64,000 nucleotides of DNA from contig NZ_JBGUQY010000024.1 of assembly GCF_045131395.1 (NCBI RefSeq), forward strand, positions 86,069-150,068, read 5' to 3'. The translations under genes were made by a program, and so were the position numbers. Below are positions 43,086 to 47,032 of this stretch, in pieces; the stretch's first letter is position 1, and every line of letters starts with the position of its first letter. The stretch comes from Fibrobacter sp. Its GTDB lineage: Bacteria > Fibrobacterota > Fibrobacteria > Fibrobacterales > Fibrobacteraceae. Under the pieces are notes generated by a model, which saw nothing but the letters and a program-made list of their open reading frames with translations, searched no databases and was not told the origin of the DNA.

Positions 43086-43847
43086 ATGATGAGCGAAATC
43101 ACAGACCTCAAATTCACCGTCCGCTTTTCGGACTGCGACGAGTACGGCAGGCTTAAACTGTCGCGCCTGTTCCAGTTCATGGAAGAAGCCGCCATTACCG
43201 ACGCCGAACGGAACGGATTTGGCCTGTGGCAAATGATGAAGGCGGGCTACACCTCGGCCATTACGCGCATGAAGGTCCGCATCAACCACACCCCGCTCAT
43301 GGGAGAATCCCTCAGCGTTTCTACCTGGATCAAGGAAATCTACAAGGACAAGGTTGTCCTCAAGGATTACGCCGTCGTCGATAGCCAGGGCCACGCCCTT
43401 GCCGAAGGCACTTCGTCCTGGATTCTGGTGAACCTGAAGACCGGCTTCGCCGAGCCCCCCTCCAACAGTCCGTTCCCCTTCCCCATCCAGCTCGAAAAGA
43501 GCGCCCTGCCCGAAATGCTGCAGGTGTTGCCCATGGGCCAGGATCCTCAATTAGTTTATACGGAACATGCCCGCAACAGCGACTTGGACCTGAACCACCA
43601 CGTAAACCACTGCCGTTACGTGGAATGGATCCTCGATTGCCTCAGCAAAGAGGAACTCAAGGAACGCGGCATCCGCTCGCTGCAGCTGAACTTCGTGAAC
43701 CAGGTGCCCCTGGGTGCCAACGTGAACATTATCCGCTTCAAGGACACGAACCACCATGCCGTATTCTTCGGCATGAACGCCGACATGGAAAAGAGCCCCA
43801 CCACCAACCGTTGCCATTTCCAGGCCCGCGTGGGTTTCAGGGAATAG
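43086..43847 (+). CDS. acyl-ACP thioesterase
   Basis: Double hot-dog layout (FTVRFSDCDEYGRLKLSRLFQFMEE... and ...ARNSDLDLNHHVNHCRYVEWILD). Confidence 0.8.
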   Translation: MMSEITDLKFTVRFSDCDEYGRLKLSRLFQFMEEAAITDAERNGFGLWQMMKAGYTSAITRMKVRINHTPLMGESLSVSTWIKEIYKDKVVLKDYAVVDSQGHALAEGTSSWILVNLKTGFAEPPSNSPFPFPIQLEKSALPEMLQVLPMGQDPQLVYTEHARNSDLDLNHHVNHCRYVEWILDCLSKEELKERGIRSLQLNFVNQVPLGANVNIIRFKDTNHHAVFFGMNADMEKSPTTNRCHFQARVGFRE

Positions 43848-43889
43848 CATCAGGGAATAACCAGCCCCACTCCCGGCCACATTTCAAAG
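43799..43889. repeat. 91-bp direct repeat, left copy (contains the authentic thioesterase 3' end and a duplicate of the MBL-gene 3' end)
   Basis: Identical to 45327..45417 except for one base (43849 A versus 45377 T). Confidence 0.95.
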
Positions 43890-43893
43890 GGAA

Positions 43894-44103
43894 ATACAGG
43901 CTAAACAGAGGTTTCAGCCTAATTTAGCCTGTACAAATCCCTCCGCTGACGGGGAAAATTGTTACATGCAGCAATTTGTACAGGCCAAGAGCATGTTAAA
44001 CCACATTTTGGCCCGTACCGCCGCCACCATTCGCAACTTTTCAAGCCATTTTTCCGCATTTTGTACAGGCCAACAGCAGCTTTTGGCACATTCAGCCTGT
44101 ACA
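43894..44103 (+). repeat. three ~85-bp units, each with inverted arms GTACAGGC(N~24)GCCTGTAC
   Basis: 5' arms at 43894 (ATACAGGC), 43978 and 44063. 3' arms at 43927, 44011 (GCCCGTAC) and 44095. Unit spacing is 84 and 85 bp. Confidence 0.85.
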
Positions 44104-44146
44104 ACTAGCATTTTGAGACTCAAGTCTCTATTTATCACTTATTTGC

Positions 44147-44980
44147 TCATAGCAAATACTGTTTCACAATCCTTTCTACGCGAGTCGCATCCAGAGGCAC
44201 TTCTGACGACTCCATTGATATAATTAGATTCTTCCCTAGAAAGAATCCATTGGCTTCAAAACAATTTATTTTCCAAGCCACTTGCGAAGAATATTCCGCA
44301 ACATCCATCATGCCAAAATGCTCCCATATAAATTCGTGACGCAAACGTACGTTTAAACAAGTGAAATCAGGATAAATTTTCATAGACTTTTGCGAATTCT
44401 TTGCATTTCCCTTAATAGTCAGGGGACATTCATATTTATAAGGAATTTTCAGCCGATACAGCGTATCCGCAATCATAGCTTCTGATTTTGAACGAACTCG
44501 CTCCCCGCGAAGAGTCCTTATTTCCGGAATTTCCTCGTCAAATTTCTTACCTTCATAAGCAGTAGAAATCCATTGCGTCACATAAATATCTTCAGGCATC
44601 CAAACGGGCTCAACCAATTTGCGTCGTCCCTCATGCAAATCGACATACATTTTTTCCAAGTTACAAGAAGCAATTTTTTTCATAAAGCGTTCGATTGTCA
44701 ACAATTGCCGCTTCATTTCGGGCAATGCCTTTTGGTCATATTCCTTTTGTGCAAGCGCCTTTGCGCGAGCAACATCTTTCACGGGAATATACTTTCCATG
44801 TTCAGTCGTCCCTTTGGCAACATGGAACCACTGCATTTGATTCTTTCTTCTTGATATACGAAGACGTCCCGAAGGCGCTTTCTTCAGTGATTTTTCCTTT
44901 GCGGAAATCCATGACTGAAGTTGGTCGACAACCGTCTGAAGAGACGGCAATAAATTTTGAGCACATGAAAGGTCTTTCAC
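44147..44980 (-). CDS. hypothetical 277-aa protein with possible PD-(D/E)xK nuclease-like C-terminal half
   Basis: GTG start preceded by AAGGA. The C-terminal pattern RSKSEAMIAD ... IYPDFTC ... FIWEHFGMMD resembles restriction-endonuclease-fold families. No canonical lysine was identified. Confidence 0.55.
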   Translation of the reverse strand: MKDLSCAQNLLPSLQTVVDQLQSWISAKEKSLKKAPSGRLRISRRKNQMQWFHVAKGTTEHGKYIPVKDVARAKALAQKEYDQKALPEMKRQLLTIERFMKKIASCNLEKMYVDLHEGRRKLVEPVWMPEDIYVTQWISTAYEGKKFDEEIPEIRTLRGERVRSKSEAMIADTLYRLKIPYKYECPLTIKGNAKNSQKSMKIYPDFTCLNVRLRHEFIWEHFGMMDVAEYSSQVAWKINCFEANGFFLGKNLIISMESSEVPLDATRVERIVKQYLL

Positions 44981-45020
44981 TTATATTATTCCTTTTTAAA
45001 GCGTGATTAATTAAAGATTG

Positions 45021-45305
45021 GTACAGGCCAAACACATAAACTTAATGCGTTCAACCTGTAACTTTTCCTGTTTTCCAACAAAATTTCCAGCCAATTTCCA
45101 GCATCGTACAGGCTATGCAAGACATTTTTCATATTTAGTCTGCACTCTACAGCGTTTTTCCTCATTCTATTTGCCATTGGTACAGGCCAAACAAATGCTG
45201 TTCGCGTTTCTAGTCTGTACAGCCACCTTCTCCCGCAACTTTTCAGGCCATTTTTTCGCATTTCGTACAGGCCAAAGCACTGATTTCGACCCCTAAGCCT
45301 GTATA
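45021..45305 (+). repeat. four ~85-bp units of the same GTACAGGC(N~24)GCCTGTAC family
   Basis: 5' arms at 45021, 45106 (GTACAGGCT), 45180 and 45265. Degenerate 3' arms at 45054, 45138, 45213 and 45297. Spacing is 85, 74 and 85 bp, in the same orientation as the left array. Confidence 0.85.
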
Positions 45306-45326
45306 CACCCCTCTCATCCACTAGCA

Positions 45327-45417
45327 CACCACCAACCGTTGCCATTTCCAGGCCCGCGTGGGTTTCAGGGAATAGCTTCAGGGAATAACCAGCCCCACTC
45401 CCGGCCACATTTCAAAG
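45327..45417. repeat. 91-bp direct repeat, right copy (contains the authentic MBL-gene 3' end and a duplicate of the thioesterase 3' end)
   Basis: See the left copy at 43799..43889. Confidence 0.95.
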
Positions 45418-46295
45418 CTGAAACTCCCGTGCAAGTCGGTGCGGTAGATTGCCGTTGAATCGCCCGTGATTAGCCGAAGCTTGTTCACCACCTCGTCTTT
45501 GGGGTGGCCGTAACGATTGTTTTTACCGACCCCGATGGCGGCATACCTGGGGGACACTTGCGCCAGGAACTTCAAGGTGCTGCTGCCCGCCGAGCCGTGA
45601 TGCCCCACCTGCAAAAGATCCGCCGACAAGTCGTGGGAAAGTTCCATCAGGCGGTTTTCGCCCACGGAATCCAGGTCGCCCATCAACAAAAACGAACTTT
45701 CGCGCCCTGCCAGTGGCCCCGTCATAGCCCCCATCAGCACCACGCTGGCCCGATTTTCGCCAAATCTCCCATAACTGACGGGCCACAGGCATTCCAGCCT
45801 GAAATTCTCCGCAAAAAACACCGTGTCGCCGCGGACCAGGGTATCCACCGGAATCTTGTACCGCCGCGCCACCGTGAAAACGCTATCGCCCACAAAGCCC
45901 ACCGCGGTGTCCGCCCCCACCAGCAGGCGCCCCACCTTGAGCCGCCCCGACTTCAGGGCCGCCCCCATTTCCATAAAGCCACCGCCGTGGTCCCGGTGAA
46001 AATGGCTCACCAGCACCCAGTCGAGCGACTTGACGCCCCTCGCCGCAAGGGAATCCACCAGTCCGGCGGAGTCGGGTCCCGTGTCGTACAGGGCATACCG
46101 TCCCCCGTTTTCCAGCAGCACGGCAAGCCCCTGCCCCACATCCAGAAACGTGATCCGTACCGGTTCCGGGCCCCCACTCCAACCGGAATCGTAAGTGCAG
46201 GCCGACAGAAGCAGGCCAAACAAGGCGCTCCAAAGGACCCCGCAAAGCAAAATCCACAGGAAAATGCAGCGGTTCGATTTTCTTGTAACGGGCAT
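45378..46295 (-). CDS. MBL-fold metallo-hydrolase (ComEC/Rec2 C-terminal domain-like)
   Basis: ITFLDVGQGLAVLLE...VLVSHFHRDHGGG...VGHHGS. Confidence 0.8.
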   Translation of the reverse strand: MPVTRKSNRCIFLWILLCGVLWSALFGLLLSACTYDSGWSGGPEPVRITFLDVGQGLAVLLENGGRYALYDTGPDSAGLVDSLAARGVKSLDWVLVSHFHRDHGGGFMEMGAALKSGRLKVGRLLVGADTAVGFVGDSVFTVARRYKIPVDTLVRGDTVFFAENFRLECLWPVSYGRFGENRASVVLMGAMTGPLAGRESSFLLMGDLDSVGENRLMELSHDLSADLLQVGHHGSAGSSTLKFLAQVSPRYAAIGVGKNNRYGHPKDEVVNKLRLITGDSTAIYRTDLHGSFSFEMWPGVGLVIP

Positions 46296-46448
46296 ATAAC
46301 AGCATCCTTTTATGAAAGGTTCCTCTTATATACACGCCAAAATCCGCAAAACAGGGATTTTTTAACAGTTTTTGGATTGCCACGTCGCGTTCGCTCCTCG
46401 CAATGACGTTCTTTTTTGCTATCTTTACGCCTAACACTCGAGGTTTTT

Positions 46449-46814
46449 ATGCAATTACCTAAGTACAAAAAGAAAAAGCGTATCAAGTTGAAAGTCTGTC
46501 AGGAACCCGGCTGCGGCCGCGAATTCTGGGGCCACCCGATCGCCAAGTACTGCGAATTGCACCGCGACATCAAGCAGCGCCAGAAGCAGAAGAAGGATGT
46601 GGACAACATCGAGTCCAAGAACATCATCTTCCGCCACAACTACACCGAGTCCATGGACCTCACCTTCAAGTGCTGTCTCGAAGGCTGCAACGAGCTGTTC
46701 ACTATCCGCGTGTTCCCCAAGCAGTACATTTACCCCCGTTTCTGCGAAGAACACCGCAACGATTTTAAGCGCGCAAACTACCTGCGCATCATCTCAAAGA
46801 TGAAAAACGACTAA
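46449..46814 (+). CDS. small Cys/His-rich (zinc-ribbon-like) basic protein
   Basis: ATG at 46449. CQEPGC..YCELH and CCLEGC..FCEEH pairs. Followed by a terminator. Confidence 0.55.
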   Translation: MQLPKYKKKKRIKLKVCQEPGCGREFWGHPIAKYCELHRDIKQRQKQKKDVDNIESKNIIFRHNYTESMDLTFKCCLEGCNELFTIRVFPKQYIYPRFCEEHRNDFKRANYLRIISKMKND

Positions 46815-46844
46815 AAATCGGGCTTTTTCGTAAAAAATTGGACC

Positions 46845-46874
46845 GCCACCCTTGAAAATCGGGGTGGCTTTTTT
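46845..46874 (+). terminator. rho-independent terminator
   Basis: GCCACCC(loop)GGGTGGC followed by TTTTTT. Confidence 0.6.
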
Positions 46875-46894
46875 ATATTTGGGCTCACAATCAT

Positions 46895-46969
46895 GGTGGG
46901 TGTAGCTCAATTGGTTAGAGTCCCAGATTGTGATTCTGGATGTTGTCGGTTCGAGTCCGGTCACCCACC
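46895..46969 (+). tRNA. tRNA-His (GTG anticodon) with encoded G-1
   Basis: Cloverleaf folded by hand. Acceptor GTGGGTG/CACCCAC with an extra 5' G opposite C73. Anticodon stem CCAGA/TCTGG with loop TTGTGAT. TTCGAGT T-loop. Similar to E. coli tRNA-His from memory. Confidence 0.88.
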
Positions 46970-46973
46970 CTTA

Positions 46974-47003
46974 AAAAAGACCTCGCATTCGCGGGGTCTT
47001 TTT
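46974..47003. repeat. 30-bp repeat AAAAAGACCTCGCATTCGCGGGGTCTTTTT (bidirectional terminator hairpin), copy 1
   Basis: Identical 30-mer at 49757..49786. Stem GACCTCGC/GCGGGGTC. Confidence 0.9.
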
Positions 47004-47032
47004 TTGTTCTTATGGAGGAAACAAAAGCGTTT

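What the first reader, a model, noticed from the sequence alone, without database searches (positions are those of the whole stretch)
43799..45417. 1.44-kb foreign insertion bounded by 91-bp direct repeats that duplicate the ends of two convergent genes
Seen directly: 43799-43889 and 45327-45417 are identical at 90 of 91 positions. The repeat covers the last 46 nt plus the stop of the thioesterase gene, then a 2-nt spacer, then the last 40 nt of the convergent MBL-fold gene. Both genes therefore stay intact, and each repeat copy carries a dead duplicate of the other gene's tail.

The 1437 bp between the repeats is visibly more AT-rich than its flanks. It contains no integrase or transposase that I can recognise.

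Inference: a 91-bp duplication is far longer than usual transposon target-site duplications. It looks more like attL/attR of an integrative element mobilised in trans, or an unknown insertion mechanism with widely staggered cuts.
Basis: partly seen in the sequence, partly recalled or inferred. Interest (0 to 1): 0.75.

Follow-up and report, generated by a model that had tools for sequence, protein, structure and literature searches.

The report
Nuclease cassette with 91-bp target duplication
A 1.4-kb piece of foreign DNA, carrying one nuclease gene and arrays of matching hairpin repeats, sits exactly between two Fibrobacter genes and duplicated 91 bp of its target; it belongs to a very large unnamed family, and how it inserts is not yet known.

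Summary
43799-43889 and 45327-45417 match at 90 of 91 positions. They flank a 1437-bp insert with 41.5% GC, against 52-56% in the flanks.

Six related metagenome contigs carry the empty site. Five of them have one copy of the 91-nt segment with the two genes abutting, so the repeat is a real target duplication. An independent sample reproduces both junctions.

The insert is not gene-less. It encodes a 277-aa protein with a coiled-coil N-terminal half and a PD-(D/E)xK-type nuclease C-terminal half. Seven palindromic units (GTACAGGCCAA...GCCTGTAC) flank the gene, four upstream and three downstream.

This gene-plus-array cassette defines a large unnamed family: 3105 clusters at E<=1e-30, in Fibrobacter, Treponema, Lachnospiraceae and others. 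The arm sequence differs between cassettes and tracks the N-terminal domain.

Diverged cassettes occupy the same site in other Fibrobacter lineages, with decayed repeat remnants. A second site (L014/L018) has a 35-44-bp duplicated terminator. No integrase or transposase lies between the repeats in either case.

My best reading is a selfish, site-specific nuclease cassette that inserts through widely staggered breaks. Recombination between the repeats and mobilisation in trans remain open.

The parts
43799..43889 (.). Left copy of the 91-bp target duplication: the live thioesterase tail (43799-43847), a 2-nt spacer, and a dead copy of the MBL tail (43850-43889)
   Evidence: single copy in empty-site relatives
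45327..45417 (.). Right copy of the 91-bp target duplication: a dead copy of the thioesterase tail (45327-45375), a 2-nt spacer, and the live MBL tail (45378-45417)
43890..45326 (-). Inserted cassette, 1437 bp, GC 0.415
   Evidence: 99% identical copy in L001
44147..44980 (-). 277-aa ORF: N-terminal coiled-coil and beta-hairpin region (about aa 1-140) plus C-terminal PD-(D/E)xK-type nuclease domain (about aa 150-277; conserved E167, D205, E220-H221)
45017..45308 (-). Array upstream of the ORF: four palindromic units (45017-45062, 45102-45148, 45176-45224, 45261-45308), with arms GTACAGGCC(AA)/(TT)GGCCTGTAC-like, spaced 74-85 nt
43891..44106 (-). Array downstream of the ORF: three palindromic units (43891-43938, 43974-44020, 44059-44106), spaced about 84 nt
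   Evidence: fold z-scores -6.1, -3.5, -2.5
43086..43847 (+). Host acyl-ACP thioesterase gene, intact
45378..46295 (-). Host MBL-fold hydrolase gene, intact

Best explanation
The insert is a self-contained selfish cassette from a large unnamed family. It has one gene for a two-domain protein and tandem arrays of palindromic units. The N-terminal domain reads the arms of those units, and the C-terminal domain is a PD-(D/E)xK nuclease.

The cassette entered the junction between the convergent thioesterase and MBL genes of a Fibrobacter succinogenes-group genome. I infer that the target was broken on the two strands 91 bp apart. The cassette was joined between the staggered ends, and repair synthesis filled the gaps. 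This duplicated the 91 bp and kept both genes intact.

Shown:
- the insertion and the empty sites;
- the target origin of the repeat;
- the cassette's anatomy and its family;
- the joint variation of arms and N-terminal domain;
- the absence of any other enzyme gene between the repeats.

Inferred:
- that the cassette's own nuclease makes the breaks;
- that the breaks are staggered nicks;
- that the arrays are the protein's cis sites.
For: 1. Empty sites hold exactly one 91-nt copy, and alignment breakpoints fall at the repeat edges.

2. The two copies are 90/91 identical, while lineages differ by 9-20% in nucleotide sequence, so the event is recent or renewed.

3. Only the ORF and its arrays lie between the repeats.

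4. The C-terminal domain has a restriction-endonuclease fold. BFVD hits include DUF2726, restriction enzymes, a Holliday-junction resolvase, endonuclease I, TnsA_N and DUF559, most at probability 0.9 or above. PDB hits are weak but are all PD-(D/E)xK nucleases. PADLOC PDC-S68 matches the C-terminus at E = 2e-23.

5. Flanks of 57 of 80 genome loci hold recurring 9-mers, about 45 of them as alternating-strand palindromic units. Adjacent regions average 3.47 hairpins against 0.83 in controls. Arms stay intact while loops and linkers drift to about 0.3-0.5 identity.

6. Arm identity tracks the N-terminal domain and not the nuclease domain. Logistic coefficients are 0.75 against -0.02, and L014 versus HC4 is a natural domain swap.

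7. A second site (L014/L018) has a 35-44-bp duplicated host terminator bounding the cassette, again with no recombinase gene.

8. Between the window and L001 the insert differs at 10 of 1437 positions, but the left repeat copy differs at 4 of 81, including one 20 nt from the junction. This fits a repeat copied from each host's own sequence.

9. The ORF is more diverged at four-fold sites than the host genes, which argues against pure co-divergence.
Against: - Only two sites (three lineages) out of about 70-80 loci show an intact target duplication. Long duplication is therefore not shown to be a family rule.
- No empty site was found for the L014/L018 locus.
- The window-type and L002/L113-type cassettes share the identical cassette/dead-tail junction, and L012/L118 retain part of the same dead tail. 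This also fits a single old insertion whose repeats are kept identical by gene conversion.
- No near-identical multi-copy sets occur within a genome. Copies in one genome have different arms.
- No catalytic activity, cut sites or intermediates are known.
- A 91-bp stagger has no precedent that I know of among bacterial transposons (own knowledge).
- Arrays usually lie on one side of the gene only: 184 units upstream, 42 downstream. That is unlike classical transposon ends.
Confidence: 0.4

Rival explanations
1. Repeat-mediated recombination cycle. The duplication arose once, long ago. Since then the cassette plus one repeat copy pops out by homologous recombination between the repeats, which restores a perfect empty site. 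It re-enters empty sites of related strains by a single crossover in the 91-bp homology, or it is carried in on flanking homology. Gene conversion keeps the two copies alike. The nuclease is cargo or an addiction function, not the integrase.
For: - The same cassette/dead-tail junction is found in window-type and L002/L113-type cassettes, and part of the same dead MBL tail remains in L012/L118.
- Filled and empty sites are interleaved among lineages of similar AroA distance.
- 91 bp and 35-44 bp both exceed the usual minimum length for RecA recombination (own knowledge).
- L014 and L018 share the same repeat and left junction but carry different cargo.
- The first and last 20 nt of L001 are identical, which is compatible with a circle.
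Against: - It does not explain how a repeat is first made at a new site such as L014/L018.
- In L001 the left repeat copy differs from the window's at a position 20 nt from the junction while the insert is 99.3% identical. This leaves too little element-borne homology for a crossover.
- L001's end positions also fit an integrated form broken at k = 31 branch points.
Confidence: 0.25
2. A defence or addiction cassette that is not self-mobile. The nuclease is a toxin or effector. The hairpin array is its operator, decoy or RNA antidote, in the manner of a type III toxin-antitoxin system. The cassette arrived by ordinary gene transfer and illegitimate recombination, and the repeat is a by-product.
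For: - In L018 the same repeat-bounded slot also holds a KilA-N/PDC-S22 gene and a type II R-M system.
- The C-terminal domain matches PADLOC candidates PDC-S68 and PDC-S69.
- Each genome has one or a few diverged copies with distinct specificities.
- Arrays lie mostly upstream of the gene.
- There is a slight excess of G:T over A:C arm mismatches on the sense strand, 192 against 154, p = 0.047.
Against: - It gives no account of two precise target duplications whose edges coincide with the cassette's edges.
- No known toxin-antitoxin or defence family matches the full protein.
- Most loci are solitary insertions among housekeeping genes, not defence islands.
- Only the arms are conserved, unlike the near-identical repeats of type III antitoxins.
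Confidence: 0.18
3. One reading: a small integrative element mobilised in trans. The 91-bp repeats are attL and attR, recombined by a tyrosine or serine recombinase encoded elsewhere in the genome or on a helper element.
For: - The empty site has a single copy, as attB would.
- There is no integrase in the insert.
- In L014/L018 the repeat is a hairpin terminator with a 7-nt loop, which resembles a recombinase core site.
Against: - A crossover between the two stop codons would disrupt neither gene, so an att-type element would have no reason to carry 49 nt and 40 nt of two gene tails.
- The repeat matches the host's own lineage sequence at 90 of 91 positions, although the cassette ORF is far more diverged from its relatives than the host genes are.
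- The cassette carries its own nuclease and cognate sites that vary together with it.
- No recombinase was seen in the repeat-bounded segments of L014 or L018.
Confidence: 0.12
4. Assembly artefact. A free 1.5-kb circle that shares 91 bp with the chromosome was threaded into an empty chromosomal site by the assembler.
For: For k-mers shorter than 91, an integrated copy and a circle plus an empty site give the same graph. L001 is compatible with either form.
Against: - The two copies differ at position 51 and each is linked to its own flank in the window.
- Diverged cassettes are integrated at the same site in long contigs from many independent assemblies: L002, L009, L012, L013, L113, L118.
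- Ordinary reads span 91 bp.
Confidence: 0.03

Closest known systems
Free-standing homing endonuclease genes (for example the seg and mob genes of T-even phages; PD-(D/E)xK and Vsr-like homing enzymes)
   Same: A lone nuclease gene sits in an intergenic slot between conserved genes. It is present in some close relatives and absent from others at the same site. It is AT-rich and diverges faster than its flanks. There is no transposase.
   Different: Homing copies the gene by repair from a filled allele and leaves no target duplication. Here 91 bp are duplicated. Known homing genes lack flanking arrays of cognate palindromes. No sequence match to any known homing family was found.
REP / RAYT (TnpA-REP) systems
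   Same: A single gene is flanked by palindromic repeats that its product is thought to recognise. The repeat sequence differs between lineages together with the protein.
   Different: RAYT is an HUH Y1 enzyme, whereas this protein has a PD-(D/E)xK fold. REPs are scattered in hundreds of copies around the genome, whereas here the motif is confined to the cassette: 5 exact copies in 64 kb, all in the insert.
Tn7-type elements (TnsA PD-(D/E)xK nuclease; several transposase-binding sites in each end; site-specific insertion downstream of a conserved gene)
   Same: There is a restriction-fold nuclease (a TnsA_N-like fold is among the BFVD hits), several repeated protein sites in both ends (3 and 4 in the window), and insertion just past the 3' ends of conserved genes without disrupting them.
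   Different: There is no TnsB, TnsC or TnsD. The whole element is 1.4 kb. The duplication is 91 bp or 35-44 bp rather than 5 bp. Most family members have an array on one side only.
Type III toxin-antitoxin systems (ToxIN, CptIN, TenpIN)
   Same: A tandem repeat array lies upstream of a small nuclease gene, and each system has its own cognate repeat.
   Different: Those toxins are ToxN-type endoribonucleases and their repeats are near-identical 36-45-nt units. Here the units are 64-106 nt, only the hairpin arms are conserved, and arrays can lie downstream or on both sides.
PADLOC candidate PDC-S68 and helicase-nuclease fusions on plasmids
   Same: The C-terminal domain of about 120 aa is homologous (E = 2e-23; 29-41% identity to the C-termini of AAA/RecD/UvrD-like proteins).
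   Different: Those proteins are about 1200 aa with ATPase or helicase domains. The family here is about 270 aa, with a coiled-coil N-terminal half and a repeat array.

Membership tests
Classical insertion sequence / transposon | Encodes a DDE, HUH, serine or tyrosine transposase | tested here: not met
   Pfam, NCBIfam and PHROGs give no transposase hit for the only ORF, and the fold is a restriction-endonuclease type
Classical insertion sequence / transposon | Short target duplication of fixed length (2-14 bp) | tested here: not met
   91 bp here and 35-44 bp in L014/L018
Classical insertion sequence / transposon | Several near-identical copies per genome | tested here: not met
   There is no second copy in the 64-kb window. 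Copies within one genome are diverged and have different arms. Whole source genome not available.
Integrative element with att sites | Carries an integrase (tyrosine or serine recombinase) | tested here: not met
   None in the insert and none in the L018 repeat-bounded segment
Integrative element with att sites | Direct repeats equal to a single-copy attB in empty sites | tested here: met
   L110, L111, L117, L119 and L120 hold one copy of the segment
Free-standing homing endonuclease gene | Lone nuclease gene at a fixed intergenic site, variably present among close relatives | tested here: met
   Filled in L002-L010, L012, L013, L113, L115, L116, L118; empty in L110, L111, L114, L117, L119, L120
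Free-standing homing endonuclease gene | Sequence membership in a known homing family (LAGLIDADG, GIY-YIG, HNH, His-Cys, PD-(D/E)xK, EDxHD) | tested here: inconclusive
   No sequence match. There is only fold-level PD-(D/E)xK similarity.
Free-standing homing endonuclease gene | Enzyme cleaves the empty allele; insertion by repair, without target duplication | tested here: not met
   A 91-bp duplication is present. Cleavage itself cannot be tested with these tools.
REP / RAYT | HUH Y1 (TnpA-REP) protein | tested here: not met
   No Y1_Tnp hit; the fold is different
REP / RAYT | Cognate palindromes dispersed around the genome | tested here: not met
   All 5 exact copies and 4 of the 16 one-mismatch copies of GTACAGGCC in 64 kb lie in the insert
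Type III toxin-antitoxin | ToxN/CptN/TenpN-type endoribonuclease toxin | tested here: not met
   No Pfam or PADLOC hit of that kind
Type III toxin-antitoxin | Repeat array acts as RNA | tested here: inconclusive
   G:T against A:C arm mismatches are 192 against 154, p = 0.047, and by locus 31 against 19. No expression data.
TIGR-Tas / CRISPR-type guide arrays | Nop-domain Tas protein or a Cas protein (PMC12385481) | tested here: not met
   No Nop or Cas hit in Pfam, NCBIfam or PADLOC
TIGR-Tas / CRISPR-type guide arrays | Unrelated, acquired spacers between conserved repeats | tested here: not met
   Loops and linkers are related by duplication and drift. In L053, L016 and L084 the loops are 85-93% alike.
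Tn7-like element | TnsA together with TnsB and TnsC, and a 5-bp duplication | tested here: not met
   Single ORF; no Pfam TnsA, TnsB or TnsC hit; 91-bp duplication
PADLOC PDC-S68 | Full-length match to the ~1200-aa protein | tested here: not met
   Only profile positions 1101-1218 of 1221 are matched

The most novel reading that the evidence does not exclude
This is a new class of autonomous mobile or selfish element. A small PD-(D/E)xK nuclease has an exchangeable N-terminal domain that reads a cognate palindromic array. It inserts at gene 3' ends by breaking the target tens of base pairs apart, giving target duplications of 35-91 bp that rebuild the flanking gene ends or terminators.
Probability: 0.3. 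Interest if true: 0.85.

Novelty: new variant of a known kind. Interest (0 to 1): 0.7.

Why it matters
Three things would matter if this holds.

1. It points to a very large, unnamed protein family. There are 3105 clusters at 50% identity with E<=1e-30, spread across several phyla of gut and rumen bacteria. Each member is paired with its own array of palindromic sites. The recognition half of the protein seems to be swappable independently of the nuclease half. A natural, modular, sequence-reading nuclease of 270 aa is of interest for biology and possibly as a tool.

2. A clean 91-bp target duplication with matching empty sites is, to my knowledge, far longer than the duplications described for bacterial transposons. 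It calls for an insertion chemistry that has not been described, or for a recombination cycle that keeps the repeat renewed.

3. The second site shows the same kind of repeat-bounded slot holding restriction-modification and KilA-N genes. Such cassettes may therefore mark or create small hotspots for accessory genes in genomes where few mobile elements are known.

Tried and rejected
- **Array linkers as decayed copies of the duplicated gene tails.** Local alignment against shuffles was not significant. The best case was reached by 6 of 300 shuffles, before correction.
- **A conserved terminal motif GAGGGGTGT.** It is seen at the same offset in the window and L014, but it is absent from other loci and lies inside the array in L012.
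- **A conserved partner gene.** Clustering the neighbours of 80 loci gave no family in more than 5 loci. The ComEC/MBL neighbour recurs in only 4.
- **Rfam.** No meaningful match to the arrays.
- **Guide-array reading (CRISPR or TIGR-like).** Loops are related by drift and are not unique spacers.
- **Hairpin potential of the window's 91-nt target.** Not better than shuffles, z = +1.45. Only the L111 homologue and the L014 terminator fold well.
- **More cases of flanking duplications.** Four scans found only L014/L018. The other hits are two-sided arrays or probable paralogous genes.
- **An empty site for the L014/L018 locus.** Searched through aspartokinase relatives. HC4 has a variant cassette with one terminator copy, and more distant relatives have different downstream genes.
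- **Exact-product look-ups for the two flanking genes.** Nothing found.
- **First junction pattern in metagenomes.** Nothing found.
- **Short contigs other than L001.** None shows terminal overlaps.
- **Literature searches.** No description of such cassettes was found.
Full report
**1. The observation**

The window holds one long direct repeat, 43799-43889 and 45327-45417, identical at 90 of 91 positions. The single difference is at repeat position 51, in the 2-nt spacer between the two stop codons. Identity ends abruptly at both edges.

The left copy holds the last 46 nt plus the stop of an acyl-ACP thioesterase gene (43086-43847, +), then the spacer, then a dead copy of the last 40 nt of the convergent MBL-fold gene. 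The right copy holds a dead thioesterase tail, the spacer, and the live MBL tail (45378-46295, -). Both genes align end to end with their relatives.

The 1437 bp between the repeats has GC 0.415, against 0.561 and 0.524 in the 2-kb flanks.

A contig from another sample (L001, Logan SRR32285417) is 99.1% identical. It runs from inside the right copy, through the insert, into the left copy, so both junctions are seen independently.

**2. The repeat is a real target duplication**

I scanned JGI metagenomes with a conserved thioesterase 3' segment. This returned eleven contigs from the same species group.

- In six of them (L110, L111, L114, L117, L119, L120) the two genes abut, with nothing between. 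Five hold a single copy of the 91-nt segment, and L114 differs by one extra 13-nt unit.
- BLAST alignments of the window to these contigs stop at 43888-43894 and resume at 45327-45328. The two pieces overlap by about 91 nt in the subject.
- The nearest relatives by AroA (L111 99.3%, L120 98.4% amino-acid identity) are empty. They are still only 87-91% identical in DNA, so no same-strain comparison was available.

**3. What the insert contains**

The insert has one ORF, 44147-44980 on the minus strand, 277 aa.

- *Sequence searches.* Pfam, NCBIfam, PHROGs and the sequences of solved structures give no family. This holds even with a 48-member profile.
- *Partial match.* PADLOC matches only the C-terminal 120 residues, to the extreme C-terminus of the ~1200-aa candidate PDC-S68 (E = 2e-23). 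The same domain ends AAA/RecD/UvrD-like proteins on plasmids.
- *Structure.* An AlphaFold model is confident (mean pLDDT 89.5). It shows long N-terminal helices with a beta-hairpin and a C-terminal alpha/beta domain.
- *Fold search.* Against viral models the hits are DUF2726, restriction enzymes, a Holliday-junction resolvase, endonuclease I, TnsA_N and DUF559, most at probability 0.9 or above. The weak PDB hits are likewise PD-(D/E)xK nucleases, plus coiled coils.
- *Conserved residues.* Invariant residues include E167, D205 (in PDF) and E220-H221 (in WEHxG).

The ORF is flanked by seven palindromic units, four upstream of it (45017-45308) and three downstream (43891-44106). Their arms are close to GTACAGGCCAA and TTGGCCTGTAC, they enclose about 20 nt, and the units are spaced 74-85 nt apart. 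All five exact copies of GTACAGGCC in the 64-kb window lie in the insert. Three of the units fold far better than shuffles, and the others are degenerate.

**4. The cassette is one member of a large family**

- *Size.* The word-indexed search found more than 1288 relatives, and every one that carries a name is called hypothetical. The exhaustive search found 3105 clusters (50% identity) at E<=1e-30 and 8438 at E<=1e-3. Nearly all of those listed are 250-345 aa and cover the full length.
- *Distribution.* Species-representative genomes hold at least 587 loci, in Fibrobacter, Treponema, Lachnospiraceae, Butyrivibrio, Desulfovibrio, Selenomonadaceae and others. Some genomes hold several diverged copies.
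- *Plasmids and phages.* Full-length members are absent from annotated plasmids and essentially absent from phages.
- *Neighbours.* No neighbouring gene is conserved; the largest cluster covers 5 of 80 loci.
- *The array is the constant partner.* In 57 of 80 loci the flanks hold 9-mers recurring four or more times. In about 45 of them the motif alternates strands 27-31 nt apart, as palindromic units do. Adjacent regions average 3.47 perfect 8-nt-arm hairpins, against 0.83 in controls. 81% of units lie upstream of the gene.
- *Array structure.* Arrays are tandem repeats of 64-106 nt, for example 95 nt x 6.5 in L037 and 74 nt x 6.5 in L053.
- *Conservation.* Within arrays the arms stay at or near 9/9, while loops and linkers fall to 0.3-0.5 identity. 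The arm figure is inflated by how units were defined, but the contrast with saturated surroundings is real.
- *Rfam.* No match.

**5. Arms and the N-terminal domain change together**

Arm sequences differ between cassettes.

Fibrobacter sp. HC4 (L134) and L014 carry cassettes at the same place. Their proteins are nearly 100% identical over residues 121-200 and about 90% identical at the C-terminus. Over the first 120 residues they are only about 50-55% identical. The arms differ accordingly: TGTCAC(C/T)AAA in L014 and AGGTTACTAA in HC4.

Across 63 arrays, sharing of arms is predicted by N-terminal identity and not by C-terminal identity. Standardised logistic coefficients are 0.75 and -0.02. 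In one Fibrobacter subgroup all pairs are 0.78-0.89 identical in the nuclease domain, but N-terminal identity is 0.65-0.98 for same-arm pairs and 0.40-0.52 for different-arm pairs.

I infer that the N-terminal half reads the arms. Whether it reads them as DNA or as RNA is open. The excess of G:T over A:C mismatches on the sense strand is marginal (192 against 154, p = 0.047).

**6. History at this site**

Diverged cassettes occupy the same MBL/thioesterase junction in other Fibrobacter lineages:

| Loci | ORF identity to the window |
|---|---|
| L002-L008, L113, L116 | 80-81% |
| L012, L115, L118 | 69-70% |
| L009, L010, L013 | 57-58% |

None of these has the intact repeat, but remnants are visible.

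- L002/L113 keep CTCATTTCAACG, a decayed copy of the end of the MBL tail, joined to the cassette at the same nucleotide as in the window.
- L012/L118 keep about 20 nt of dead MBL tail between the thioesterase stop and the ORF stop. The downstream array has been lost.

So the architecture is either old and shared, or re-made at the same nucleotides each time.

At four-fold degenerate sites the ORF is more diverged than the host genes in every comparison: 48% identity against 57-74%, 42% against 61-70%, and 29% against 39-45%. This argues against simple co-divergence, but the samples are small and base composition differs.

Between the window and L001 the insert differs at 10 of 1437 positions, while the left repeat copy differs at 4 of 81, one of them 20 nt from the junction. 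This fits a repeat made from each host's own sequence. L001 is a short metagenome contig, however, and could be partly chimeric.

**7. A second repeat-bounded site**

In L014 the array and ORF are bounded by a 40-44-nt repeat (39/40 or 42/44). The repeat is the intrinsic terminator of the upstream aspartokinase gene.

L018 has the same site, the same left junction and a 35/35 repeat. There the repeats enclose 4.95 kb: the cassette, a KilA-N gene (PDC-S22), a C5 methylase and an Eco47II-type endonuclease. No recombinase is present.

Four scans of 67-84 loci found no further intact target duplication. No empty version of this second site was found. Long duplications are therefore documented at two sites and are not shown to be a family rule.

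**8. Mechanism**

The facts to explain are:
- a precise 91-bp duplication of host sequence;
- empty sites in relatives;
- a segment that carries only a nuclease and its cognate sites;
- the same junction in diverged cassettes;
- a second site with a 35-44-bp duplication.

I rank the explanations as follows.

| Explanation | Confidence | Main point |
|---|---|---|
| Insertion at widely staggered breaks made by the cassette's own nuclease, followed by fill-in | 0.40 | Accounts for all five facts but lacks any direct test |
| A recombination cycle between the repeat copies, with gene conversion | 0.25 | Explains the shared junction and the scattered empty sites, but not how a repeat first forms at a new site |
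| A defence or addiction cassette that is not self-mobile | 0.18 | Fits the L018 cargo but not the precise duplications |
| att-type recombination in trans | 0.12 | Fits the single-copy empty site, but not the need to carry two gene tails |
| Assembly artefact | 0.03 | Contradicted by many independent integrated copies |

**9. Comparison with known systems**

The cassette works most like a free-standing homing endonuclease gene or a minimal site-specific element. It resembles REP/RAYT and Tn7 ends in pairing a protein with repeated cognate sites. It fails the defining tests of each:
- there is no known transposase, integrase, HUH, ToxN, Nop or Cas domain;
- the duplication is far longer than those of insertion sequences or Tn7;
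- the palindromes are not dispersed around the genome;
- the loops are not acquired spacers.

I therefore file it as a new variant of the selfish nuclease-gene kind. I give a 0.3 probability that it is a new class of mobile element.

Noticed in passing
window 43838-43863 and the homologous junction in L110, L111, L114, L117, L119, L120: The two convergent genes end in the same 13-nt unit (TTCAGGGAATAnn) on the top strand. Its copy number varies between relatives' empty sites: one in L110 (the genes overlap), two in most, three in L114. This could be slippage or a footprint of earlier insertion and excision.
   Followed up: partly
window 46414-47005: A 592-nt stretch holding a Cys-rich 132-aa ORF (46416-46814) and tRNA-His (46896-46970) is 96.6-97.3% identical to L113 and L114. 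The surrounding DNA is only about 80-85% identical. It is either unusually conserved or recently exchanged.
   Followed up: no
L018 5487-10505: The repeat-bounded slot downstream of aspartokinase holds the cassette plus a KilA-N/PDC-S22 gene and a complete type II R-M system (C5 methylase and Eco47II-type endonuclease). In L014 the same slot holds the cassette alone.
   Followed up: yes
L134 8332-9895 (Fibrobacter sp. HC4) compared with L014 5457-6861: A natural module swap. The array and the first ~120 codons are replaced, while residues 121-200 are nearly 100% identical. HC4 also has a 61-aa insertion in the nuclease domain and only one terminator copy.
   Followed up: yes
L009 4369-4594 and 5589-5813; L013 4903-5162 and 6162-6422; L091 322-584 and 1577-1837: In some members the arrays on the two sides of the gene are long direct repeats of each other (81-92% over 225-263 nt). 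The whole array seems to have been duplicated across the gene.
   Followed up: partly
L075 3258-5609 and L080 3618-5906: In two Lachnospiraceae genomes the cassette lies just downstream of a 762-783-aa gene product with an MBL-type domain related to the window's MBL protein; from its size it looks like full-length ComEC. In Fibrobacter the cassette follows a short MBL-fold gene. This recurs in 4 of 80 loci, so it may be chance or a target preference.
   Followed up: partly
L121, L124, L130 and their relatives: In three separate Treponema-type clusters the ORF is followed within 25-40 nt, on the same strand, by a gene with weak TonB_C hits.
   Followed up: no
L136 8320-8766: In one relative the aspartokinase gene is followed directly by a Vsr endonuclease gene, at the place where L014 and L018 carry the cassette.
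   Followed up: no
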